31,811 bases of DNA from a virus. How positions within the stretch are numbered: position 1 is the stretch's first letter; every line of letters starts with the position of its first letter. Under the pieces are notes generated by a model, which was given only the letters and a program-made list of their open reading frames with translations, was not told the origin of the DNA and made no database searches. Of this stretch, positions 200 to 8,637 are shown one piece after another. The position numbers and the translations under genes are program-made. The stretch lies in the UHGV virus genome UHGV-0116366; one strand, 5' to 3'.

Positions 200-1036
200 A
201 TGATTCGTCTTTTAATGCTGATTAGTGCAGTATTTGGGATCGGCTATGGTTACGCGATAACGCATGATGTTTGGCCTTTTGAAGGTATGGATGCGAACCA
301 GCGAGGAGTTTTTGGCGACTCTTGGGGCGCTTTTACCTCAATCTTTTCTGCTATGGGGTTTTGTGGGGTTTTATGGACGATAAAGCTGCAGATGGATGCA
401 ACAAAAAAAATAGAGGATGATTTTAGGAAAAGGGAAGAAGCTGAAAAAATTAGGGATTTTGAGAACTCCTTCTTTAATATGTTGAGTATATTGCAAACAT
501 TAATTAAAGATATGAGGGTTGAAGGCTCTTCCGGGAAGACTTTGGCAGAAGGGCGTCATGTTTTTCTTTATTTTTTCAGACGATTCAAAAAAGAAGTTAG
601 ACAAAAAAATGGAATGTTATTAGATTATGACTCGAGTGATGAATCTGAAATTAAAAAAGCATCATCGAGAATGTCTAATGAATATAGGTTTTATTTCAGG
701 AATAGAGCTCAAAATTTATCTCATTACTTCAGATATATCTATAATATGTTTAAAATAATCCACGAATCTGATTTGTCTAACGTTAACAAGAAAAAATACG
801 CAAACATTTTACGCGCTCAACTTTCTAATTATGAGTTGCTAATGCTGTTTTATAATGCCAATTTCGTTCATGGTCAGAAATTTAAAGTATATATGAGCTT
901 GTATGCGATTCTGGATAATCTGCCAGCAGAGAAGCTTATAAATAAAAAACATGTTGCATTCTATGATAAAGAAGCGTGGGGTGATAATCTTGATGCATTA
1001 CAGTATCACCCCAAGTTTTTTGATTATGCAGATTAA
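200..1036 (+). CDS. AT-rich moron encoding a membrane-anchored protein; possible abortive-infection/exclusion (Abi-like) protein
   Basis: 278-aa ORF with hydrophobic N-terminal segments (LLMLISAVFGIGYGYAI, FTSIFSAMGFCGVLWTI) and a Lys/Asn/Tyr/Phe-rich soluble domain. Codon composition is much more AT-rich than flanking phage genes. It lies between the attachment-site gene (icd) and int, where e14 carries lit. Functional call is from memory of Abi-like families and is not verified. Confidence 0.55.
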   Translation: MIRLLMLISAVFGIGYGYAITHDVWPFEGMDANQRGVFGDSWGAFTSIFSAMGFCGVLWTIKLQMDATKKIEDDFRKREEAEKIRDFENSFFNMLSILQTLIKDMRVEGSSGKTLAEGRHVFLYFFRRFKKEVRQKNGMLLDYDSSDESEIKKASSRMSNEYRFYFRNRAQNLSHYFRYIYNMFKIIHESDLSNVNKKKYANILRAQLSNYELLMLFYNANFVHGQKFKVYMSLYAILDNLPAEKLINKKHVAFYDKEAWGDNLDALQYHPKFFDYAD

Positions 1037-2163: not shown

Positions 2164-2389
2164 CGCTGAGGATCCTTTGTAATTTTGGTGAATCAGATTT
2201 CTTGATAACCGGCGCAGCAAGTTCTCCAACCAATTCCGCGTCCTCCCTAACTCTCCAGAGCCTACCTTGCTTCATTGCTGGCGGAGAAAAGAGATTTTGC
2301 TTAGCGTAACGGCGCAATGTAGAGACGCTAGGTGGATTACTTCTGTATTTATCGGTTGCCCATTCTTCAAGAGTTAACATCTGAATCAT
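2144..2389 (-). CDS. xis: excisionase (Xis-like DNA-binding protein)
   Basis: 81-aa basic protein immediately upstream of and overlapping int; MIQMLTLEEWA...RYAKQNLFSPPAMKQGRLW resembles lambda Xis (MYLTLQEWNARQ...). GGAG RBS upstream. Confidence 0.7.
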   Translation of the reverse strand: MIQMLTLEEWATDKYRSNPPSVSTLRRYAKQNLFSPPAMKQGRLWRVREDAELVGELAAPVIKKSDSPKLQRILSDGCETT

Positions 2390-2968
2390 GCGTTATTCTC
2401 CATATAACCCAGCTGCACCCGGGTTTTAACATCAACTATTCGTATGGTTCTCCGCTGCCGTGTATACCGCTACTTTCAGCAGATTGAATCAGTTAACTTT
2501 CCCTACGACCCACGGCTTAGAAGTCCGTTGCTCTCTTTAAGCTAACATCGCAACTGGAAGCGCGCTCCGGTAGTTTTGGATTAACGACTGACCATAAAGG
2601 TTAAGGGACAGAACGCGCTTTCATGTTGAGCCCTGAAAAAGGCTGGCGGTTACCGGACAAACGGGAAAACACCGGGCCGCCAGAACAGGGAAGTACTTGT
2701 TATTGCTTTGGCCTGCTTTTAACCACATCAGGCGCGGTGGTAGGTATCTTCGGGCGGGGCGCTGGGGACCAACCAGCTACAACCCCTACGGTATTTACAC
2801 TCCACGCCGTGGGTTAACGGCTCCGTATCGTGGCTGAGTTTCTGTTGCTGGTGGTCAAGCCAGCTTCGCAACCCCTCCCGAAGACACCTGTCAGCGAATC
2901 ATCCGGTCATTCATATGCCACCGGCGGCTACTTCGTGGGCGTCCTGCCTGTTCGCTGTTGATGAATAA

Positions 2969-2997
2969 AATCTAACTTAACTTAGCTTTTAGATCAA
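2969..2997 (-). promoter_or_regulatory. PL-like leftward promoter with overlapping operator
   Basis: On the minus strand: TTGATC - 17 nt - TAGATT. The 14-bp near-palindrome CTAACTTAACTTAG (2973-2986) lies in the spacer and matches the operator consensus found at OR. Confidence 0.45.
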
Positions 2998-3051
2998 GAA
3001 AAAACACCAAACTATTCTTAGCTTGATGTTAAGAGGAAGATTAGAGGTGGG

Positions 3052-3678
3052 TTAAAGCTCGTACTGAACGCCTTTGACAACGCCGATGATCAGGCAATTA
3101 CCGTTAATTGAAATGTTTGGATAGCGTGGATTTAAGGGAACTAAGAACTTTTGAGGCCCATCGATGACAAGTTTTTTTACAGTAGCCTCGTTTGTCCCAT
3201 CAAGCCTGGCTACGACTATCTTTCCATGAAGTGGCTCTGCATCTGGATCTACTATGACTGTTGCCCCTTCAGGGATTGTCGGGAGGCCATTAGGGTTTGT
3301 CATCGAATCACCTTTAACCTCCAATGCAAAGGAGCTATCCCCTATGCGGAGTGATGTCTCTATCCACTTATCTACTTCGCTGAAAACTTCTGCTGCTTTA
3401 CATTCTGTAAACTGTCCAGCCTGAACCCAGGATATCACCGGAATCCTTCGCATCTTGGTTATCAGATTGCCTTCAAATTCAGTGCCATAAAGTATGTAAT
3501 CAATTGATGTGTTGAAATACTTTGCAAGTTTCGCAAGTGACTCGCCTCCTGGCACATTAACGTCTTTTTCCCAATACCCAACCGCCACATCACTAACACC
3601 GCAGAACTTACCCAGTTCTTTCTGCGAGGTTTTGGTTATGCGCCTGAGAGCTTTGATGCGCTGACCGACAGTTTCCAT
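3052..3678 (-). CDS. cI: CI-type phage repressor (N-terminal HTH_XRE, C-terminal S24 LexA-like peptidase)
   Basis: N-terminus QRIKALRRITKTSQKELGKFCGVSDVAVGYWEKDVNVP (HTH). C-terminal domain has GDSM (Ser nucleophile) and VKK (Lys) as in LexA/CI autopeptidases. Divergent from cro. Confidence 0.9.
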   Translation of the reverse strand: METVGQRIKALRRITKTSQKELGKFCGVSDVAVGYWEKDVNVPGGESLAKLAKYFNTSIDYILYGTEFEGNLITKMRRIPVISWVQAGQFTECKAAEVFSEVDKWIETSLRIGDSSFALEVKGDSMTNPNGLPTIPEGATVIVDPDAEPLHGKIVVARLDGTNEATVKKLVIDGPQKFLVPLNPRYPNISINGNCLIIGVVKGVQYEL

Positions 3679-3704
3679 TTGAACACCATAAATAAATTAA
3701 AAGG

Positions 3705-3767
3705 CTAAGCAATCTTAGTTTTTATTGACCAAAGTTAGATTGGTTATTAATATCTAATCAAACTTAG
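3705..3767. promoter_or_regulatory. OR-like operator cluster: CTAAGCAATCTTAG (3705-3718), CCAAAGTTAGATTGG (3729-3743), CTAATCAAACTTAG (3754-3767)
   Basis: Repeated 14-bp CTAAG-N4-CTTAG inverted-repeat sites in the cI-cro intergenic region, overlapping the PR -35/-10 and start site. Confidence 0.5.
3725..3753 (+). promoter_or_regulatory. PR-like rightward promoter for cro (TTGACC - 17 nt - TAATAT)
   Basis: Near-consensus sigma70 hexamers with 17-nt spacing, 28 nt upstream of the cro ATG. AGGAGG RBS at 3771-3776. Confidence 0.55.
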
Positions 3768-3780
3768 CTAAGGAGGCGTT

Positions 3781-4008
3781 ATGACAACCGATGATATTGA
3801 AAACTACTTCGGCAGTACTGAGAAGGTTGCCGAATTTTTTGGAATCACAAGCGAGGCTGTTTACCAGTGGCGTAATAGAACTGGTCGCCTTATCCCAAAA
3901 GGGCGTGCAGCTGAAGCAGCATATCGAACCGGGGGGAAATTGGTTTTTCATCCCGACCTTTACGAAAAGCGTAGCGATGCTTCAGTAAAACTCAAACCAC
4001 AGGAATAA
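3781..4008 (+). CDS. cro: Cro-like repressor
   Basis: 75-aa protein divergent from cI with a strong RBS; FGSTEKVAEFFGITSEAVYQWRN resembles Cro/YdaS-type HTH. Confidence 0.75.
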   Translation: MTTDDIENYFGSTEKVAEFFGITSEAVYQWRNRTGRLIPKGRAAEAAYRTGGKLVFHPDLYEKRSDASVKLKPQE

Positions 4009-4018
4009 GGGGGGAGCT

Positions 4019-4570
4019 GTGGGTAACGAACCTATTTGGAAAGTCGAACGTCAGCCAGCCTGGCTGGTGGCGGCGATAAAAAAAACGATCACCGATCTTC
4101 CTGGTGGTTATGCCGAGGCGGCGGAATGGTTGGGCGTGACAGAGAACGCATTGTTCAACCGCCTTCGTGTTGACGGCGACCAAATCTTCCCGCTGGGCTG
4201 GGCAATGGTTTTACAACGTGCTGGTGGTTCAACTCATATTGCTGATGCCGTTGCGCGCCATTCTCAGGGCGTATTTGTACCGCTGGCAGACGTTGATGAT
4301 CTGGATAACGCCGATATAAACCAGCGCCTGATGGAGTCCATTGAATGGATAGGTCGTCATTCTAATTTTGTACGTAAAGCCACGGCTGATGGGGTAATTG
4401 ACGCAGATGAGCGTGCTCAGATTGAGGAAAACAGCTATCAGGTTATCGCGAAGTTCCAGGAGCACGTAACGCTTCTTTATCGAGTTTTTTGTGTCGCTGA
4501 AAAGAGTGACGCCCGCGAGTGTGCAGCTCCGGGCGCCTTGGCGAACAACTCTTCGAGTATGGAGAAATAA
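4019..4570 (+). CDS. CII-like regulatory protein (phage 186 CP76 type)
   Basis: 183-aa ORF directly after cro, GTG start. Length and position match the e14 ymfL / CP76 family; call is by recollection of the family, not alignment. Confidence 0.55.
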   Translation: MGNEPIWKVERQPAWLVAAIKKTITDLPGGYAEAAEWLGVTENALFNRLRVDGDQIFPLGWAMVLQRAGGSTHIADAVARHSQGVFVPLADVDDLDNADINQRLMESIEWIGRHSNFVRKATADGVIDADERAQIEENSYQVIAKFQEHVTLLYRVFCVAEKSDARECAAPGALANNSSSMEK

Positions 4571-4922: not shown

Positions 4923-5769
4923 ATTAACCGGCTACGTATGGGATGGTTGCGCGGCGTCGGGCATGAAGTTGTCTAGTGTCGCGATCATGGCTCGCCTTGC
5001 TGATTTCAGCAGCGATGAGGGGGTGTGCTGGCCGTCTATTGAAACTATTGCTCGCCAGCTTGGCGCAGGGCCGAGCACTATCAGAACGGCAATCGCTAAG
5101 CTTGAAAAAGATGGCTGGCTCACGCGTACACAGCGCCGTAATGGTAACCGTAATGCGTCGAACGTTTACCGCCTGAATGTGGCGAAACTTCAGGCTGCCG
5201 CATTTTCTCAACTGTCAGATTCTGACACGTCAAAATCTGACGCATCAAAATTTGACACCTCAAAAACTGACCCGTCGAAATCTGGCAAAATCGGCGGTTT
5301 TGACCCGTCAGAATCTGGCGGGGATCCGTCAGTAAAATCAACACAAGATCCACAAGTAACTTCAAAACCCTCTTGTCCGGTTGCGGCGCAACCAGACCCT
5401 GAAGTTGTGATTACCGACCAGGCGATTTTGGTTCTGACCCATTTGAACCAGATCAGCGGATCCCGGTATCAGAAATCCAAAACATCCCTGGAGAATATCC
5501 GCGCCCGACTGCGTGAGGGATACAGCGTTGCAGACCTGCAACTGGTTATCGACCTGAAGCATGAGCACTGGCACGAGAACGACGAGCAATACCAGTACAT
5601 GCGGCCGGAAACGCTTTTTGGTCCGAAGAAATTCGAGAGCTATCTGCAAAGCGCTACCCGCTGGGATCAGAAGGGACGGCCTAAACGCGCTGATTGGGGT
5701 GCGAAAAAGCGCGATGTGATGGCTTTTGGTCCGGTTGATACAACGATTCCTGCGGGGTTCAGAGGATGA
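4912..5769 (+). CDS. phage replication initiator (N-terminal HTH, C-terminal conserved phage replication domain)
   Basis: N-terminal winged-HTH-like region (SIETIARQLGAGPSTIRTAIAKLEKDGWLTR). C-terminal block (LENIRARLREGYSVADLQLVIDLKHEHWHENDEQYQYMRPETLFGPKKFESYLQ) is typical of lambdoid replication-organiser proteins. Iterons lie inside the gene. Confidence 0.8.
   Translation: MSTKLTGYVWDGCAASGMKLSSVAIMARLADFSSDEGVCWPSIETIARQLGAGPSTIRTAIAKLEKDGWLTRTQRRNGNRNASNVYRLNVAKLQAAAFSQLSDSDTSKSDASKFDTSKTDPSKSGKIGGFDPSESGGDPSVKSTQDPQVTSKPSCPVAAQPDPEVVITDQAILVLTHLNQISGSRYQKSKTSLENIRARLREGYSVADLQLVIDLKHEHWHENDEQYQYMRPETLFGPKKFESYLQSATRWDQKGRPKRADWGAKKRDVMAFGPVDTTIPAGFRG
5215..5335. repeat. origin-like iteron array inside the replication gene (about six copies of GTCARAWTCTGAC-like 12-13-mers)
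   Basis: tcagattctgac / gtcaaaatctgac / atcaaaatttgac / ctcaaaaactgac / gtcgaaatctggc / gtcagaatctggc are readable in tandem; they encode the low-complexity SDSDTSKSDASKFDTSKTDPSKSG linker. Confidence 0.6.
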
Positions 5770-6647
5770 CGTTAAACAAATATTGCCAGGCGCTGGCGGC
5801 ATTACGTAGCCAACCAGCCCACGAATTGAAAGAAGTTGGCGATCAGTGGCGGACGCCGGATCTGCTTTTTTGGGGGATCAACGCGCTATTTGGTCCATTA
5901 GTTCTGGACTTGTTTGCAGACGACGACAACGCGAAGTGCCCGGCATGGTACACCGCCGAAGATAACGCGCTGACACAGAACTGGTCTGAACGTCTGGATG
6001 AACTGGGCGGAGCGGCGTTTGCCAACCCTCCATATAGCCGCTCGCAGTATCACGACAGGCAGGCGATCACGGGTATGACACACATCATGAATCACACCAT
6101 GGACATGCGTGAAAGAGGTGGTCGCTATATTTACCTGGTGAAGTCTGCCACAAGTGAAACATGGTGGCCGGAAGATGCCGATCACATCATGTTTATTCGT
6201 GGTCGTATTGGGTTCGATCTGCCTGTGTGGTTTGTACCTGCTGACGAAAAACAGAAACCCACCAGCGCGTTTTTTGCCGGTGCCATAGCTGTATTCGATA
6301 AGTCATGGCGTGGTGAGCGGTTCAGCTATATCAACCGCACTGAGTTGGAGGCAAAAGGTCGGGCATTTATGGCGCTGGCTCAATTCGCTGTTGGTAAAGA
6401 GCAAACAATTGCAACGCTGGCAGCCCAGGAACCAGCAGCACCACCAAAAACTGAGTCACGAATCTGGCCTCTCGAAGTTGGTCTGGTGTTTAACCAAGTG
6501 GAAGGCGCTGATGTATTGAGCGAGGCCCAGCAGAACAAACTGAAAGCCAACATCAATCAACTCTGGCTGGAGCGGACGGCCACCAGCGAAATTATCGCAA
6601 TTGCGCGTGGCCTTGTTGGCAGCATGCAGGGGGTAACCCATGCGTGA
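5766..6647 (+). CDS. DNA N6-adenine methyltransferase (phage Dam-like) with C-terminal extension
   Basis: FANPPYS motif (NPPY catalytic motif of amino-MTases) in the N-terminal ~170 aa; C-terminal ~120 aa of unknown function. Confidence 0.75.
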   Translation: MTLNKYCQALAALRSQPAHELKEVGDQWRTPDLLFWGINALFGPLVLDLFADDDNAKCPAWYTAEDNALTQNWSERLDELGGAAFANPPYSRSQYHDRQAITGMTHIMNHTMDMRERGGRYIYLVKSATSETWWPEDADHIMFIRGRIGFDLPVWFVPADEKQKPTSAFFAGAIAVFDKSWRGERFSYINRTELEAKGRAFMALAQFAVGKEQTIATLAAQEPAAPPKTESRIWPLEVGLVFNQVEGADVLSEAQQNKLKANINQLWLERTATSEIIAIARGLVGSMQGVTHA

Positions 6648-8637
6648 GATTATCGTTGATAACTTTGCTGGTGGCGGTGGCGCATCAACGGGTATTGAAC
6701 TGGCAATCGGGCGCAGCGTGGATATTGCGATCAACCACGACGAAAACGCCATTGCGATGCACAAGACGAACCACCCGGACACACTGCATTATTGTGAATC
6801 CGTATTTGACGTGGATCCGGTAGCCGCCACCGGAGGTAATCCTGTCGGACTGGCATGGTTTAGCCCGGACTGCCGACACTTCTCGAAGGCAAAAGGCGCA
6901 AAGCCTGTGAAAAAAGAGATACGCGGTCTGGCCTGGATTGTTCTGCGTTGGGCACTGGCGAAGCGACCGCGCGTGATGATGCTGGAGAACGTGGAAGAGT
7001 TCAAAACGTGGGGACCGTTAATTGACATCCCGCCTAAACCTGATTTGCCGGAAGCCCTTTTGGCGGATTTTATTGGCCCGGTTTACCCTGGAAATAGTCG
7101 CCCAGACCCTGCCCGCACTGGAGAAACATTCAATGCATTTGTCGGCATGCTGTCCACTGGCATTCCTGCTGATCACCCGGCACTGGCTGAGGTTTGTGAG
7201 TTTCTGTCTATTGTAAGAGGTAGCGAGCAGGCGAAAAAGCTGGTGGATGGGCTCGGATATGATGTTGATTATCGTGAACTGCGCGCGTGTGATTACGGCG
7301 CGCCGACGATCCGCAAACGCTTCTTCATGGTTATGCGCTGCGATGGCTGCCCAATCCAGTGGCCTACTGTTACCCATGGGGATCCTAAGTCTCTGGAGGT
7401 GCAGAGCGGCAGGCTGATGCCATGGCGTACCGCTGCGGAATGTATCGACTGGAATGTTCCGGCCCTGTCCATCTTCGACCGCAAAAAACCGCTGGCGGAG
7501 AACACTTTGAAGCGGATCGCGCGCGGCATACAGCGCTTTGTTATCGAAAGTGCGTCGCCGTTTATCGTGAAGTGCAACCACACCACGACCAAAGGAAAAT
7601 ACGACTGTTTCCGTGGGCAGGAGTTGAGTGAGCCGCTGCAGACCATTACGAAAACCCATGGCTACGCGTTAGCCGTGCCACACCTGACAAAATTCCGCAC
7701 TGGCGCAACCGGGCAGCCCGTTACCGAGCCTGTCCCGACGGTAACCGCTGGCACATCAAAACGTCCAGGTGGGAATGGGCATGCACTCGGGATTGTTGAG
7801 GCTGCACTGACACCATTCCTGGCGGGTAATGGTGGTAGTGAATACCAGGCTAAACCACGCCCGCTGGATAAACCTGCTCATACCATTCTGAAGCAATCCC
7901 GCGCCTGTCTTGTTGCGCCAGTGATAGCCCGCCAGTTTGGGGCCAGCGTCGGCCATCGGGCAGACGAACCGAGCGCAACCATCACCGCTGGCGGTGGCGG
8001 TAAATCTCAACTGGTAACGCCTACGCTGATCCAGATGGGTTATGGCGAACGTCCAGGACAAGAACCGCGTGTGCTGCGACTGGATAACCCGCTGGGGACC
8101 GTTACTGCAGGTGGAAATAAATTCGCGACGGTGAGCGCGTTCCTGGCAAAACACTACGGCGGTAACTATACGGGGCCGGGTGTCAGTATGGATGAACCCG
8201 CGCACTCAGTGACCACTGTCGACCATCATGCAGTAGTTGCCTCTCATCTGGTGAAACTGCGAGGAACATGCCGCGACGGGCAGTGCCTTGATGTGCCCAT
8301 GCCAACAATCACCGCTGGTGGCCAACACGTGGGTGAGGTACGCACATTTCTCGAGACGTATTGCGGGGAAAGTGACGATGAATGGCTGGTAACGATCGAT
8401 GGGGTTAAATACCAGATCGTTGATATCGGAATGCGCATGTTGCAGCCGCATGAACTCTACAAAGCGCAGGGCTTCCCCGATGGATACGTTATTGATCAGG
8501 ACTACCGTGGAAATCGCTATGCAAAAGATAAGCAGGTAGCCCGCTGCGGTAATGCGGTACCACCACCATTCGCCAGGGCGCTGGTGGAGGCAAATCTTCC
8601 GGAACTGTGTGCAGTGCAACAGCAGGAGGTGGCATGA
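6640..8637 (+). CDS. DNA (cytosine-5) methyltransferase with unusually long variable region, possibly multispecific
   Basis: Motif I FAGGGG, PC-like motif FSPDCRHFS, motif VI MMLENV, motif VIII YGAPTIRKRFFMV, C-terminal CGNAVPPP. About 360 aa separate motif VIII from motif IX/X and contain four copies of a (T/V)(I/V)TAG(G/T) motif. Confidence 0.85.
   Translation: MREIIVDNFAGGGGASTGIELAIGRSVDIAINHDENAIAMHKTNHPDTLHYCESVFDVDPVAATGGNPVGLAWFSPDCRHFSKAKGAKPVKKEIRGLAWIVLRWALAKRPRVMMLENVEEFKTWGPLIDIPPKPDLPEALLADFIGPVYPGNSRPDPARTGETFNAFVGMLSTGIPADHPALAEVCEFLSIVRGSEQAKKLVDGLGYDVDYRELRACDYGAPTIRKRFFMVMRCDGCPIQWPTVTHGDPKSLEVQSGRLMPWRTAAECIDWNVPALSIFDRKKPLAENTLKRIARGIQRFVIESASPFIVKCNHTTTKGKYDCFRGQELSEPLQTITKTHGYALAVPHLTKFRTGATGQPVTEPVPTVTAGTSKRPGGNGHALGIVEAALTPFLAGNGGSEYQAKPRPLDKPAHTILKQSRACLVAPVIARQFGASVGHRADEPSATITAGGGGKSQLVTPTLIQMGYGERPGQEPRVLRLDNPLGTVTAGGNKFATVSAFLAKHYGGNYTGPGVSMDEPAHSVTTVDHHAVVASHLVKLRGTCRDGQCLDVPMPTITAGGQHVGEVRTFLETYCGESDDEWLVTIDGVKYQIVDIGMRMLQPHELYKAQGFPDGYVIDQDYRGNRYAKDKQVARCGNAVPPPFARALVEANLPELCAVQQQEVA

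What the first reader, a model, noticed from the sequence alone, without database searches (positions are those of the whole stretch)
2973..3767. Immunity-region architecture: CTAAG-N4-CTTAG operators flanking cI, with a probably leaderless cI transcript
Three 14-bp sites sharing CTAAG/CTTAG inverted arms occur at 2973-2986 (in the PL spacer), 3705-3718 and 3754-3767 (overlapping PR, TTGACC-17-TAATAT). The cI ATG is only a few nt downstream of a TATTTA-like -10 on the minus strand, suggesting a leaderless maintenance transcript as for lambda PRM. This defines the immunity specificity of the prophage.
Basis: seen in the sequence. Interest (0 to 1): 0.4.

Follow-up and report, generated by a model that had tools for sequence, protein, structure and literature searches.

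The report
P22-type prophage immunity switch, new specificity
The three repeated sites are real repressor-binding sites of an ordinary phage on/off switch built like that of Salmonella phage P22, but two weaker sites were missed and the idea that the repressor message has no leader is not supported.

Summary
The three sites are real. The core CTAA-N6-TTAG occurs exactly three times in 31.8 kb (0.28 expected), always next to cI. It is kept at the same places in 12 relatives from six genera whose coding DNA is only 74-80% identical. Two details need correcting: the first site is 2972-2985, and only 3705-3718 has both perfect arms.

The region matches phage P22 immC nearly base for base. Site 3754-3767 is OR1, 3705-3718 is OR3, and a missed weak site at 3730-3743 is OR2. 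Site 2972-2985 is OL1, and a missed candidate at 3008-3021 is OL2. The cI N-terminal domain is 44% identical to P22 C2. Relatives with a P22-like recognition helix use TTAAG arms instead of CTAAG.

The leaderless claim is not supported. P22's PRM -10 (TAAGAT, inside OR3) is invariant here and predicts a start near 3706. That gives a leader of about 28 nt carrying a conserved GGTG ribosome-binding motif. A start at the ATG cannot be excluded.

This is an ordinary new member of a known kind.

In passing, the PL transcript starts with an unannotated 74-nt structured RNA (2962-2889) with strong covariation. It is present in a quarter of complete E. coli genomes.

The parts
3052..3678 (-). cI repressor gene (208 aa): HTH_3 N-terminal domain plus S24 autopeptidase C-terminal domain
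   Evidence: Pfam HTH_3 38.9 bits and Peptidase_S24 94.7 bits. The N-terminal domain aligns without gaps to the P22 C2 N-terminal domain (E 3e-12). The C-terminal domain aligns to lambda cI (E 1e-25) with the Ala-Gly site, GDSM serine and KK lysine aligned.
3781..4008 (+). cro (75 aa), preceded by AAGGAGG
   Evidence: Pfam P22_Cro 44.6 bits against a cut-off of 30.2. Weak matches to the N15, Xfaso and P22 Cro structures.
3754..3767 (.). OR1 core, CTAATCAAACTTAG. It starts directly after the PR -10 and covers the PR start.
   Evidence: It occupies the position of the P22 OR1 core. The arms are invariant in 12 relatives while positions 5-7 vary.
3730..3743 (.). OR2 core (weak), CAAAGTTAGATTGG, in the PR spacer. 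Its first base is the last base of the -35.
   Evidence: It is one of the two best matrix hits (9.4 bits) in the whole window outside the three strong sites; only those sites' own reverse-strand readings score higher. In L010 and L014 the same position reads CTAATAAAGATTAG, a full CTAA-N6-TTAG. It matches the P22 OR2 core TAAAGATTCCTTTA base for base in position.
3705..3718 (.). OR3 core, CTAAGCAATCTTAG (perfect arms). It lies 6 nt upstream of the PR -35 and contains the P22-type PRM -10.
   Evidence: Same position as the P22 OR3 core.
3725..3753 (+). PR promoter, TTGACC-17-TAATAT; start near 3760
   Evidence: Promoter scan. TTGACC is invariant in relatives. Collinear with the annotated P22 PR.
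3712..3717 (-). Candidate PRM -10, TAAGAT. The homologous start is A3706, giving a leader of about 28 nt.
   Evidence: Same hexamer and same place as the annotated P22 PRM -10 (L204 2179-2174; RM 5' end annotated at 2168). Invariant in 16 of 16 distinct relatives. This is inference by homology, not a mapped start.
3684..3687 (-). Shine-Dalgarno-like GGTG, 5 nt before the cI ATG
   Evidence: TGGTG sits at a fixed distance in 13 of 16 distinct leaders. The other three have GGGA, GGCGGA or GAAGAAG at 5-7 nt.
3685..3694 (-).
   Evidence: TTGCTT-16-TATGGT scores 6.8 bits in the window only (5.3 in L002 at a 15-nt spacer). TATTTA is not conserved. xATGGT is present in 10 of 16 distinct leaders.
2972..2985 (.). 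OL1 core, CTAACTTAACTTAG, in the PL spacer. It overlaps the PL -10 by 3 nt.
   Evidence: Identical in 11 of 12 relatives. Same position as the P22 OL1 core.
3008..3021 (.). Candidate OL2 core, CAAACTATTCTTAG, 36 bp from OL1 and inside the cI terminator hairpin
   Evidence: Best matrix hit (11.0 bits) in the window outside the three strong sites, after their own reverse-strand readings. It is CAAACTAAACTTAG (16.6 bits) in six relatives. The P22 OL1-OL2 centres are 35 bp apart. Its conservation is confounded by the hairpin.
2969..2997 (-). PL promoter, TTGATC-17-TAGATT; start near 2962
   Evidence: Read. TTGACC is found in most relatives. Collinear with the annotated P22 PL, TTGACC-17-TAAATT. 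Scores 11.1 bits (L165).
3003..3030 (-). Terminator-like hairpin plus T run after cI
   Evidence: Terminator scan: 12 pairs, loop of 4, then TTTTTTCTTGAT.
2889..2962 (-). 74-nt structured RNA at the 5' end of the PL transcript (a side finding). It sits where P22 has nutL and HK022 has putL.
   Evidence: Covariance model hit of 100.6 bits. Covariation in 4 of 5 P2 pairs and in P1 pair 8-71. Widespread and unannotated.
4019..4570 (+). cII-like regulator (YmfL / CP76 family)
   Evidence: Pfam Phage_CP76 38.7 bits.

Best explanation
The region is the immunity (immC-type) switch of a lambdoid prophage. It is built like that of Salmonella phage P22 but has its own operator specificity.

Sites and binding (inferred):
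- Dimers of the SOS-cleavable cI repressor, and Cro, bind sites whose 14-bp core is CTAAg-N4-cTTAG. These sit within 18-bp operators as in P22.
- On the right there are three sites: OR1 at 3754-3767 (strong), OR2 at 3730-3743 (weak) and OR3 at 3705-3718 (strong, perfect arms).
- On the left there are two: OL1 at 2972-2985 (strong) and probably OL2 at 3008-3021 (weak).

Mechanism (inferred):
- Repressor at OR1 and OR2 blocks PR. Repressor at OL1 blocks PL.
- The weak sites are probably filled cooperatively through the lambda-like C-terminal domain.
- OR3 overlaps the maintenance promoter, so it can shut off cI synthesis at high repressor levels or when Cro binds.

cI transcript (inferred by homology):
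- The maintenance promoter is most likely the homologue of P22 PRM. Its -10 is TAAGAT inside OR3 (3717-3712), its -35 is poor and lies under OR2, and the start is near A3706.
- In P22 the ATG abuts OR3 and the leader is 4 nt. In this lineage there are 22-26 extra nt, so the message would carry a leader of about 28 nt with a GGTG ribosome-binding site.

Shown here: the existence, significance, conservation and P22-collinear placement of the sites; the protein homologies; and the covariation of half-site with recognition helix across relatives.

Inferred: binding itself, the occupancy order, cooperativity and the PRM start.
For: Significance and conservation of the sites:
- CTAA-N6-TTAG occurs 3 times against 0.28 expected. 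In 12 relatives it occurs only at the homologous places.
- OR3 to OR1 spacing is 49 bp in every relative.
- The 63 bp from OR3 to OR1 are 78-100% identical, and 100% in L005. The adjacent cI DNA is 74-80% identical, except in the near-identical L002, which is 96%.
- Within sites the arms are invariant and the central bases vary.
- A matrix trained on the strong sites ranks 3008-3021 and 3730-3743 as the two best hits in the window outside those sites.

Collinearity with P22:
- The curated P22 record annotates OR1-3, OL1-3, PR, PL, PRM and the RM 5' end.
- Anchored on the -35 hexamers, OR3, the -35, OR2, OL1 and the PL -35 coincide exactly. OR1 and OL2 are shifted by 1 bp.

Proteins:
- The cI N-terminal domain matches the P22 C2 N-terminal domain (E 3e-12, no gaps).
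- The C-terminal domain matches lambda cI (E 1e-25).
- Cro belongs to the P22_Cro family.

Specificity covariation:
- All relatives with CTAAG operators keep the helix GVSDVAVGYWEKD.
- Xenorhabdus and Photorhabdus relatives with a P22-like helix, GVSH(V/A)A(I/V)SQWEKE (GVSHVAISQWEKE in three of five), use TTAAG-N4-CTTAA at the same positions, as P22 does.

PRM and leader:
- TAAGAT is invariant in 16 of 16 distinct relatives.
- A Shine-Dalgarno-like motif lies 5-7 nt before the ATG in 16 of 16.
Against: - No binding or transcript data exist for this phage.
- OR2 matches only 7 of 10 arm positions. OL2 lies inside a terminator hairpin, which could by itself explain part of its conservation.
- No third OL site was found at the P22 OL3 position.
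- TAAGAT is part of the operator, so its invariance is not independent evidence for a promoter. Its -35 (ATCTAA) is poor. My promoter matrix ranks this candidate low.
- The fixed 6-nt distance between (T/A)ATGGT and the ATG in 10 of 16 leaders equally fits a -10 that would start the message at the ATG.
- The Shine-Dalgarno-like motif could serve only an establishment (PRE) transcript, as in lambda.
Confidence: 0.75

Rival explanations
1. There are three operators only, and the maintenance cI message is leaderless or nearly so, as for lambda PRM or the 4-nt leader of P22. It would start at 3678-3682 from a -10 just upstream of the ATG: TATTTA at 3694-3689, or better TATGGT at 3690-3685.
For: - TTGCTT-16-TATGGT scores 6.8 bits and places +1 on the A of the ATG.
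- xATGGT followed by exactly 6 nt and the ATG is present in 10 of 16 distinct relatives.
- The annotated P22 RM start is only 4 nt before the c2 ATG.
Against: - TATTTA is absent from most relatives.
- Three diverged relatives (L199/L007, L008, L009) have no -10-like hexamer there but do have GG-rich Shine-Dalgarno-like motifs.
- The -35 (TTGCTT) becomes TTACTT, TAACTT or TTAATT in relatives.
- With this start OR2 would be centred near -58, a geometry unlike P22 or lambda.
- The 22-26 nt between OR3 and the ATG are absent from P22-like relatives. They look like an added leader with a ribosome-binding site.
- The middle OR site and the second OL site are supported by position and by relatives.
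Confidence: 0.2
2. PRM has lambda-like geometry: TGGTCA (3731-3726)-18-TAGCCT (3707-3702), starting near 3695. This would put OR2 at -41.5 and OR3 at -16.5, and give a 17-nt leader.
For: - This candidate recurs among the four best-scoring promoter candidates in six of the twelve relatives, though not in the window itself (score 4.6).
- The operator centres would then match the lambda values of -42 and -19 (lambda values from my own knowledge).
- The C-terminal domain is lambda-like.
Against: - Both hexamers are by-products of other conserved elements: the complement of the PR -35 and the arm of OR3.
- The score is low.
- The whole OR region is collinear with P22, not lambda.
Confidence: 0.12
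3. The repeats are not protein-binding sites. They are conserved only because they overlap promoters and a terminator, or through recent common descent.
For: - Every site overlaps or abuts a promoter hexamer or the terminator.
- The close relatives are few.
Against: - The inverted-repeat arms are conserved, but the centres are not.
- The same 5-4-5 layout recurs at both promoters, although the sites sit in different places relative to the hexamers.
- The half-site changes together with the recognition helix in more distant relatives and in P22, where binding is established.
Confidence: 0.03

Closest known systems
Salmonella phage P22 immC region (c2 repressor, cro; OR1-3, OL1-3, PR, PL, PRM)
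   Same: - The repressor N-terminal domain is homologous (44% identity, no gaps). Cro is in the P22_Cro family.
- The operator layout, xTAAG-N4-CTTAx, is the same.
- OR3, OR2, OR1, OL1, OL2 and both lytic promoters sit at the same positions to within 1 bp.
- The TAAGAT hexamer lies inside OR3 in both.
   Different: - The half-site is CTAAG instead of TTAAG. The recognition helix is SDVAVGYWEKD instead of SNVAISQWERS.
- There are 26 nt with a GGTG motif between OR3 and the repressor ATG. In P22 there are 2 nt and a 4-nt leader.
- No OL3 was found.
- There is no gene 24 (N) and no nutL after PL. A 74-nt structured RNA sits there instead.
- The cII-like gene is of the YmfL/CP76 type, not P22 c1.
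Phage lambda immunity region (cI, cro, OR/OL, leaderless PRM message)
   Same: - Divergent cI and cro with a tripartite OR at spacings of about 24 bp.
- A homologous S24 C-terminal domain with cleavage site and catalytic residues.
- Operators on both sides of cI, about 0.75 kb apart, so looping is conceivable.
   Different: - The N-terminal domain and the operators are unrelated.
- The operators are shifted by about 17 bp relative to PR.
- There is no rexAB and no N.
- A leaderless PRM message is not supported here.
Immunity regions of SfV, SfII, ST64B and e14-like prophages (cI, cro, ymfL)
   Same: - Same gene order: cI, cro, YmfL-type cII, then a replication module.
- SfV carries the same 74-nt RNA next to its PL.
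   Different: SfV uses a different repressor and GGTAC-type operators, so it has a different immunity.
HK022 putL antiterminator RNA (compared with the side finding only)
   Same: About 70 nt long, starting within a few nt of the PL start, in a phage without N. The published description is in PMC9378689.
   Different: - There is no sequence or covariance-model similarity.
- The topology is a three-helix junction with a closing stem, not two tandem stem-loops.
- There is only one copy, with no putR equivalent.
- The function has not been tested.

Membership tests
P22-type immC switch | Repressor with an HTH N-terminal domain homologous to P22 C2 | tested here: met
   phmmer against PDB chains 1adr, 2r1j and 3jxb: E 3e-12. 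Residues 3-69 align to 5-71 without gaps.
P22-type immC switch | LexA/S24-type autocleaving C-terminal domain (Ala-Gly site, Ser, Lys) | tested here: met
   Pfam Peptidase_S24 94.7 bits. In the alignment to the lambda cI C-terminal domain, QAG, GDSM and KK are aligned.
P22-type immC switch | Divergently transcribed cro of the P22_Cro family | tested here: met
   PF14549 44.6 bits against a cut-off of 30.2.
P22-type immC switch | Three operators with a 5-4-5 core between the two genes, at the P22 positions relative to PR | tested here: met
   OR3, OR2 and OR1 coincide with the P22 cores (0, 0 and +1 bp) when anchored on the -35. OR2 is weak: 7 of 10 arm positions here, but a full match in L010 and L014.
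P22-type immC switch | Three operators at PL | tested here: inconclusive
   OL1 is exact. An OL2 candidate lies at the P22 position +1 bp. Nothing is recognisable at the OL3 position.
P22-type immC switch | Repressor and Cro bind these sites | not testable with these tools
   This needs EMSA or footprinting. Indirect support comes from covariation of half-site and recognition helix.
Leaderless repressor message (lambda PRM type) | A -10 hexamer ending 6-7 nt before the A of the start codon | tested here: inconclusive
TATGGT (3690-3685) fits in the window. xATGGT is present in 10 of 16 distinct relatives and absent in 6.
Leaderless repressor message (lambda PRM type) | Transcript 5' end mapped at or within a few nt of the start codon | not testable with these tools
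   This needs 5' RACE or dRNA-seq on a lysogen.
HK022 put antiterminator RNA (side finding) | About 70 nt of RNA beginning at the 5' end of the PL transcript | tested here: met
   P1 starts 4-8 nt after the predicted start in most of 86 distinct promoter contexts. The window hit is 2962-2889.
HK022 put antiterminator RNA (side finding) | Sequence and structure similarity to putL/putR (two tandem stem-loops) | tested here: not met
   Model R1 finds nothing in the HK022 immunity region at E up to 10 or up to 1. The topology differs (PMC9378689).
HK022 put antiterminator RNA (side finding) | A second copy downstream of PR | tested here: not met
   One copy per locus with filters off.
HK022 put antiterminator RNA (side finding) | Promotes read-through of terminators without a phage protein | not testable with these tools
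   No perfect-stem intrinsic terminator lies within 400 nt downstream in 67 contexts. Rho-dependent termination was not assessed.

The most novel reading that the evidence does not exclude
The 74-nt RNA at the very start of the PL transcript (2962-2889) may be a new class of cis-acting leader element. It would do for N-less lambdoid phages what nut/N or HK022 put do: make the early-left transcription complex resistant to termination or to Rho. Alternatively, it could protect the transcript. It is a separable module that travels with PL promoters of many immunity types.

Within the switch itself, the most novel reading is different. This lineage may have converted the near-leaderless P22-type PRM message into a leadered one with a ribosome-binding site, by inserting about 25 nt.
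Probability: 0.2. Interest if true: 0.65.

Novelty: new member of a known kind. Interest (0 to 1): 0.25.

Why it matters
For the finding itself, the value is annotation.
- It fixes the operators, promoters and immunity group of a prophage type found in Escherichia (including the isolated phage LLS), Enterobacter, Kosakonia, Kluyvera, Serratia and Rahnella.
- It gives a natural specificity pair for the well-studied P22 C2-DNA system: SNVAISQ with TTAAG against SDVAVGY with CTAAG.
- It does not change how such switches are thought to work.

The side finding could matter more.
- It is a covarying, unannotated RNA present in about a quarter of complete E. coli genomes, including Nissle 1917.
- It sits exactly where antitermination sites sit in other lambdoid phages, in phages with no recognisable N.

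Tried and rejected
- Rfam scans found no family. I scanned the whole window at gathering thresholds and 2300-3800 at E up to 5. The only hit was a chance miRNA match on the terminator hairpin.
- Literature searches for the SfV/e14 operators and for ST64B leader RNAs gave nothing relevant. The lambda PreS sRNA lies elsewhere, between ea10 and ral, so it is not this element. King 2011 on new put RNAs is not held.
- The consensus promoter scan finds no minus-strand promoter between cI and cro. My matrix scan gave no candidate that is both strong and conserved. PRM therefore rests on homology with P22.
- I looked for an OL3 at the P22-equivalent position (3036-3050) and found no match.
- The palindrome CTTAGCTAAG (3763-3772), which overlaps OR1 and the cro ribosome-binding site, is present only in the closest relatives. 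I do not treat it as a separate element.
- I tested the PL-leader RNA as a put homologue. There is no covariance-model hit in HK022 or P22 and no second copy.
- I looked for an N-like protein after the RNA. The downstream genes are highly variable.
- I looked for intrinsic terminators within 400 nt after the RNA. A strict scan found none.
- My first viral-contig pattern had a wrong spacer length and found nothing. The corrected pattern worked.

Full report
**Observation**

The region holds cI (3052-3678, minus strand), cro (3781-4008), a YmfL/CP76-type cII-like gene (4019-4570), and xis and int to the left.

The pattern CTAAGN4CTTAG with up to one mismatch hits exactly three places in the 31.8-kb window:
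- 2972-2985, CTAACTTAACTTAG.
- 3705-3718, CTAAGCAATCTTAG, the only site with both perfect arms.
- 3754-3767, CTAATCAAACTTAG.

The expected number is 0.51. The shared core CTAA-N6-TTAG also occurs exactly three times against 0.28 expected, and no shuffle out of 100 reaches three. PR, TTGACC-17-TAATAT (3725-3753), is confirmed by the scan. PL reads TTGATC-17-TAGATT on the minus strand (2997-2969). That is 8 of 12 consensus positions, below the scan's threshold.

**Conservation**

Twelve relatives with 82-94% identical cI proteins were recovered. They are phage LLS, E. coli strain 1943, and Enterobacter, Kosakonia, Kluyvera, Serratia and Rahnella genomes.
- CTAA-N6-TTAG occurs only at the homologous places in each of them. 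The spacing between the two right-hand sites is 49 bp in every case.
- The arms are invariant and the central bases vary.
- The 63 bp spanning the right-hand sites are 78-100% identical to the window. The flanking cI DNA is 74-80% identical in all but the near-identical L002.
- A weight matrix trained on the strong sites ranks two further positions as the best hits in the window outside those sites: 3008-3021 (11.0 bits) and 3730-3743 (9.4 bits). The same two positions come up in nearly every relative.
- In L010 and L014 the middle position is a full CTAATAAAGATTAG.

**What it is**

The cI N-terminal domain aligns without gaps to the P22 C2 DNA-binding domain (E 3e-12; 28 of 63 aligned residues identical). 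The C-terminal domain aligns to lambda cI (E 1e-25) and keeps the Ala-Gly site, the serine and the lysine. Cro belongs to the P22_Cro family.

The curated P22 record annotates OR1-3, OL1-3, PR, PL, PRM and the 5' end of the RM transcript. I anchored the two genomes on the -35 hexamers (sequences):
- The window's 3705-3718, 3730-3743 and 3754-3767 fall on the cores of P22 OR3, OR2 and OR1, with offsets of 0, 0 and +1 bp.
- 2972-2985 and 3008-3021 fall on OL1 and OL2, with offsets of 0 and +1 bp.
- In both phages, OR2 begins with the last base of the PR -35, OR1 begins right after the -10, and OL1 overlaps the PL -10 by three bases.
- Nothing resembling an operator sits at the P22 OL3 position.

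**Specificity**

P22 half-sites are TTAAG; here they are CTAAG. All relatives that keep CTAAG operators have the invariant helix region GVSDVAVGYWEKD. Xenorhabdus and Photorhabdus relatives (cI 43-47% identical) carry a P22-like helix, GVSH(V/A)A(I/V)SQWEKE (GVSHVAISQWEKE in three of five). They have TTAAG-N4-CTTAA sites at the same positions. This joint change of protein and site is the best indirect evidence that the repressor binds these sites.

**The cI transcript**

In P22 the PRM -10 is TAAGAT inside OR3. The RM 5' end is annotated 4 nt before the c2 ATG, which abuts OR3. The Xenorhabdus and Photorhabdus relatives keep that arrangement.

Evidence against a leaderless message:
- The same TAAGAT lies inside OR3 (3717-3712) and is invariant in 16 of 16 distinct relatives.
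- However, 22-26 nt separate OR3 from the ATG. By homology the start would be A3706, giving a leader of about 28 nt.
- That leader varies in sequence except for TGGTG, which lies 5 nt before the ATG in 13 of 16 distinct leaders. The other three have GGGA, GGCGGA or GAAGAAG at 5-7 nt. This is what a ribosome-binding site looks like.

Evidence that keeps it open:
- TATGGT (3690-3685) with TTGCTT as its -35 would start the message on the A of the ATG.
- xATGGT followed by 6 nt and the ATG is present in 10 of 16 leaders.
- The Shine-Dalgarno-like motif could serve only an establishment transcript, as in lambda.

A third candidate with lambda-like geometry (start near 3695) also exists. My estimates are about 0.55 for the P22-homologous start, 0.2 for a leaderless or near-leaderless start, and the rest for other arrangements. 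Only transcript mapping can settle it.

**Mechanism**

The following is inferred. Repressor at OR1 and OR2 blocks PR, and repressor at OL1 blocks PL. The weak OR2 and OL2 are probably filled cooperatively through the lambda-like C-terminal domain. OR3 overlaps PRM and allows autorepression or shut-off by Cro. RecA-stimulated self-cleavage at the Ala-Gly site induces the prophage. OL and OR are about 0.75 kb apart, so looping is possible but untested.

**Side finding**

The PL transcript begins with a conserved 74-nt element (2962-2889, minus strand).

Distribution:
- It occurs in 51 phage records, including ST64B, SfV, SfII, ZF40 and YeP1-3.
- It occurs in at least 120 IMG/VR contigs.
- It occurs in 1382 of 5426 complete E. 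coli genomes, including Nissle 1917.
- Apart from a few phage records that lay a hypothetical-protein CDS over it, none of the listed records annotates it.

Structure:
- An alignment of 39 distinct copies supports three helices. Four of the five P2 pairs covary. P1 pair 8-71 is G-C in 22 copies, A-U in 10 and U-A in 6. Overall 91.5% of cells are paired, against 21-42% when partners are slid.
- The single-sequence fold agrees with this structure.

Context:
- Most copies lie 75-200 nt after the stop codon of an S24 repressor gene, across many specificities.
- P1 starts 4-8 nt after the predicted start of strong promoters that carry many different operator types.
- Downstream genes vary, and none looks like N.
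- There is one copy per locus.
- A covariance model built from the element does not match HK022 putL or putR, or the P22 nutL region. No Rfam family matches.
- A strict scan found no intrinsic terminator within 400 nt downstream.
- Same-immunity relatives such as LLS lack it, so it is a separable module.

It occupies the nutL/putL position (PMC9378689). A role in antitermination, Rho resistance or 5' stabilisation is a hypothesis only.

**Verdict**

The operator interpretation is right but incomplete. The leaderless claim is not supported. The system is an ordinary new member of the P22 immC type with a distinct specificity.

Noticed in passing
window 2889-2962 (minus strand): A 74-nt structured RNA at the 5' end of the PL transcript. 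It has three helices with strong covariation and an invariant junction, CACGAAGUAGCCGC ... GAUGA. It is found in 1382 of 5426 complete E. coli genomes, at least 120 IMG/VR contigs and 51 phage records, essentially unannotated (a few phage records place a hypothetical-protein CDS over it), with no Rfam family and no similarity to HK022 put. Its function is unknown.
   Followed up: yes
window 2390-2888: About 500 nt between the leader RNA and xis have no ORF longer than 47 aa on the transcribed strand and are G+C-rich. The early-left operon here is reduced to this stretch plus xis and int. The close relative E. coli 1943 has rdgC, ead/Ea22-like and other genes there.
   Followed up: partly
window 2690-2740 (minus strand): The block CCACCGCGCCUGAUGUGGUUAAAAGCAGGCCAAAGCAAUAA lies directly after PL in phage LLS, L004 and L011. 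Those loci lack the 74-nt RNA. It may be an alternative PL-proximal leader element.
   Followed up: no
window 200-1036 (+): An ORF of 278 aa with a putAbiC (putative abortive infection) domain (66.9 bits). It is convergent with int, and its 3' end overlaps the int stop by 4 nt. It is a likely defence cargo gene next to the attachment site.
   Followed up: no
window 5766-8637 (+): Two adjacent DNA methyltransferase genes follow the replication gene: a Dam-type N6-adenine enzyme (153 bits) and a 665-aa C5-cytosine enzyme.
   Followed up: no
window 3003-3030: The cI terminator hairpin carries operator-like CTAAG/TTAG sequences at its top in all relatives. One DNA segment may therefore serve as both terminator and OL2.
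   Followed up: partly
L015, L017-L020 (Xenorhabdus and Photorhabdus loci): These prophages have P22-like operators (TTAAG-N4-CTTAA), a P22-like recognition helix and a cI ATG abutting OR3. They nevertheless carry the same 74-nt PL leader RNA as the window.
   Followed up: partly
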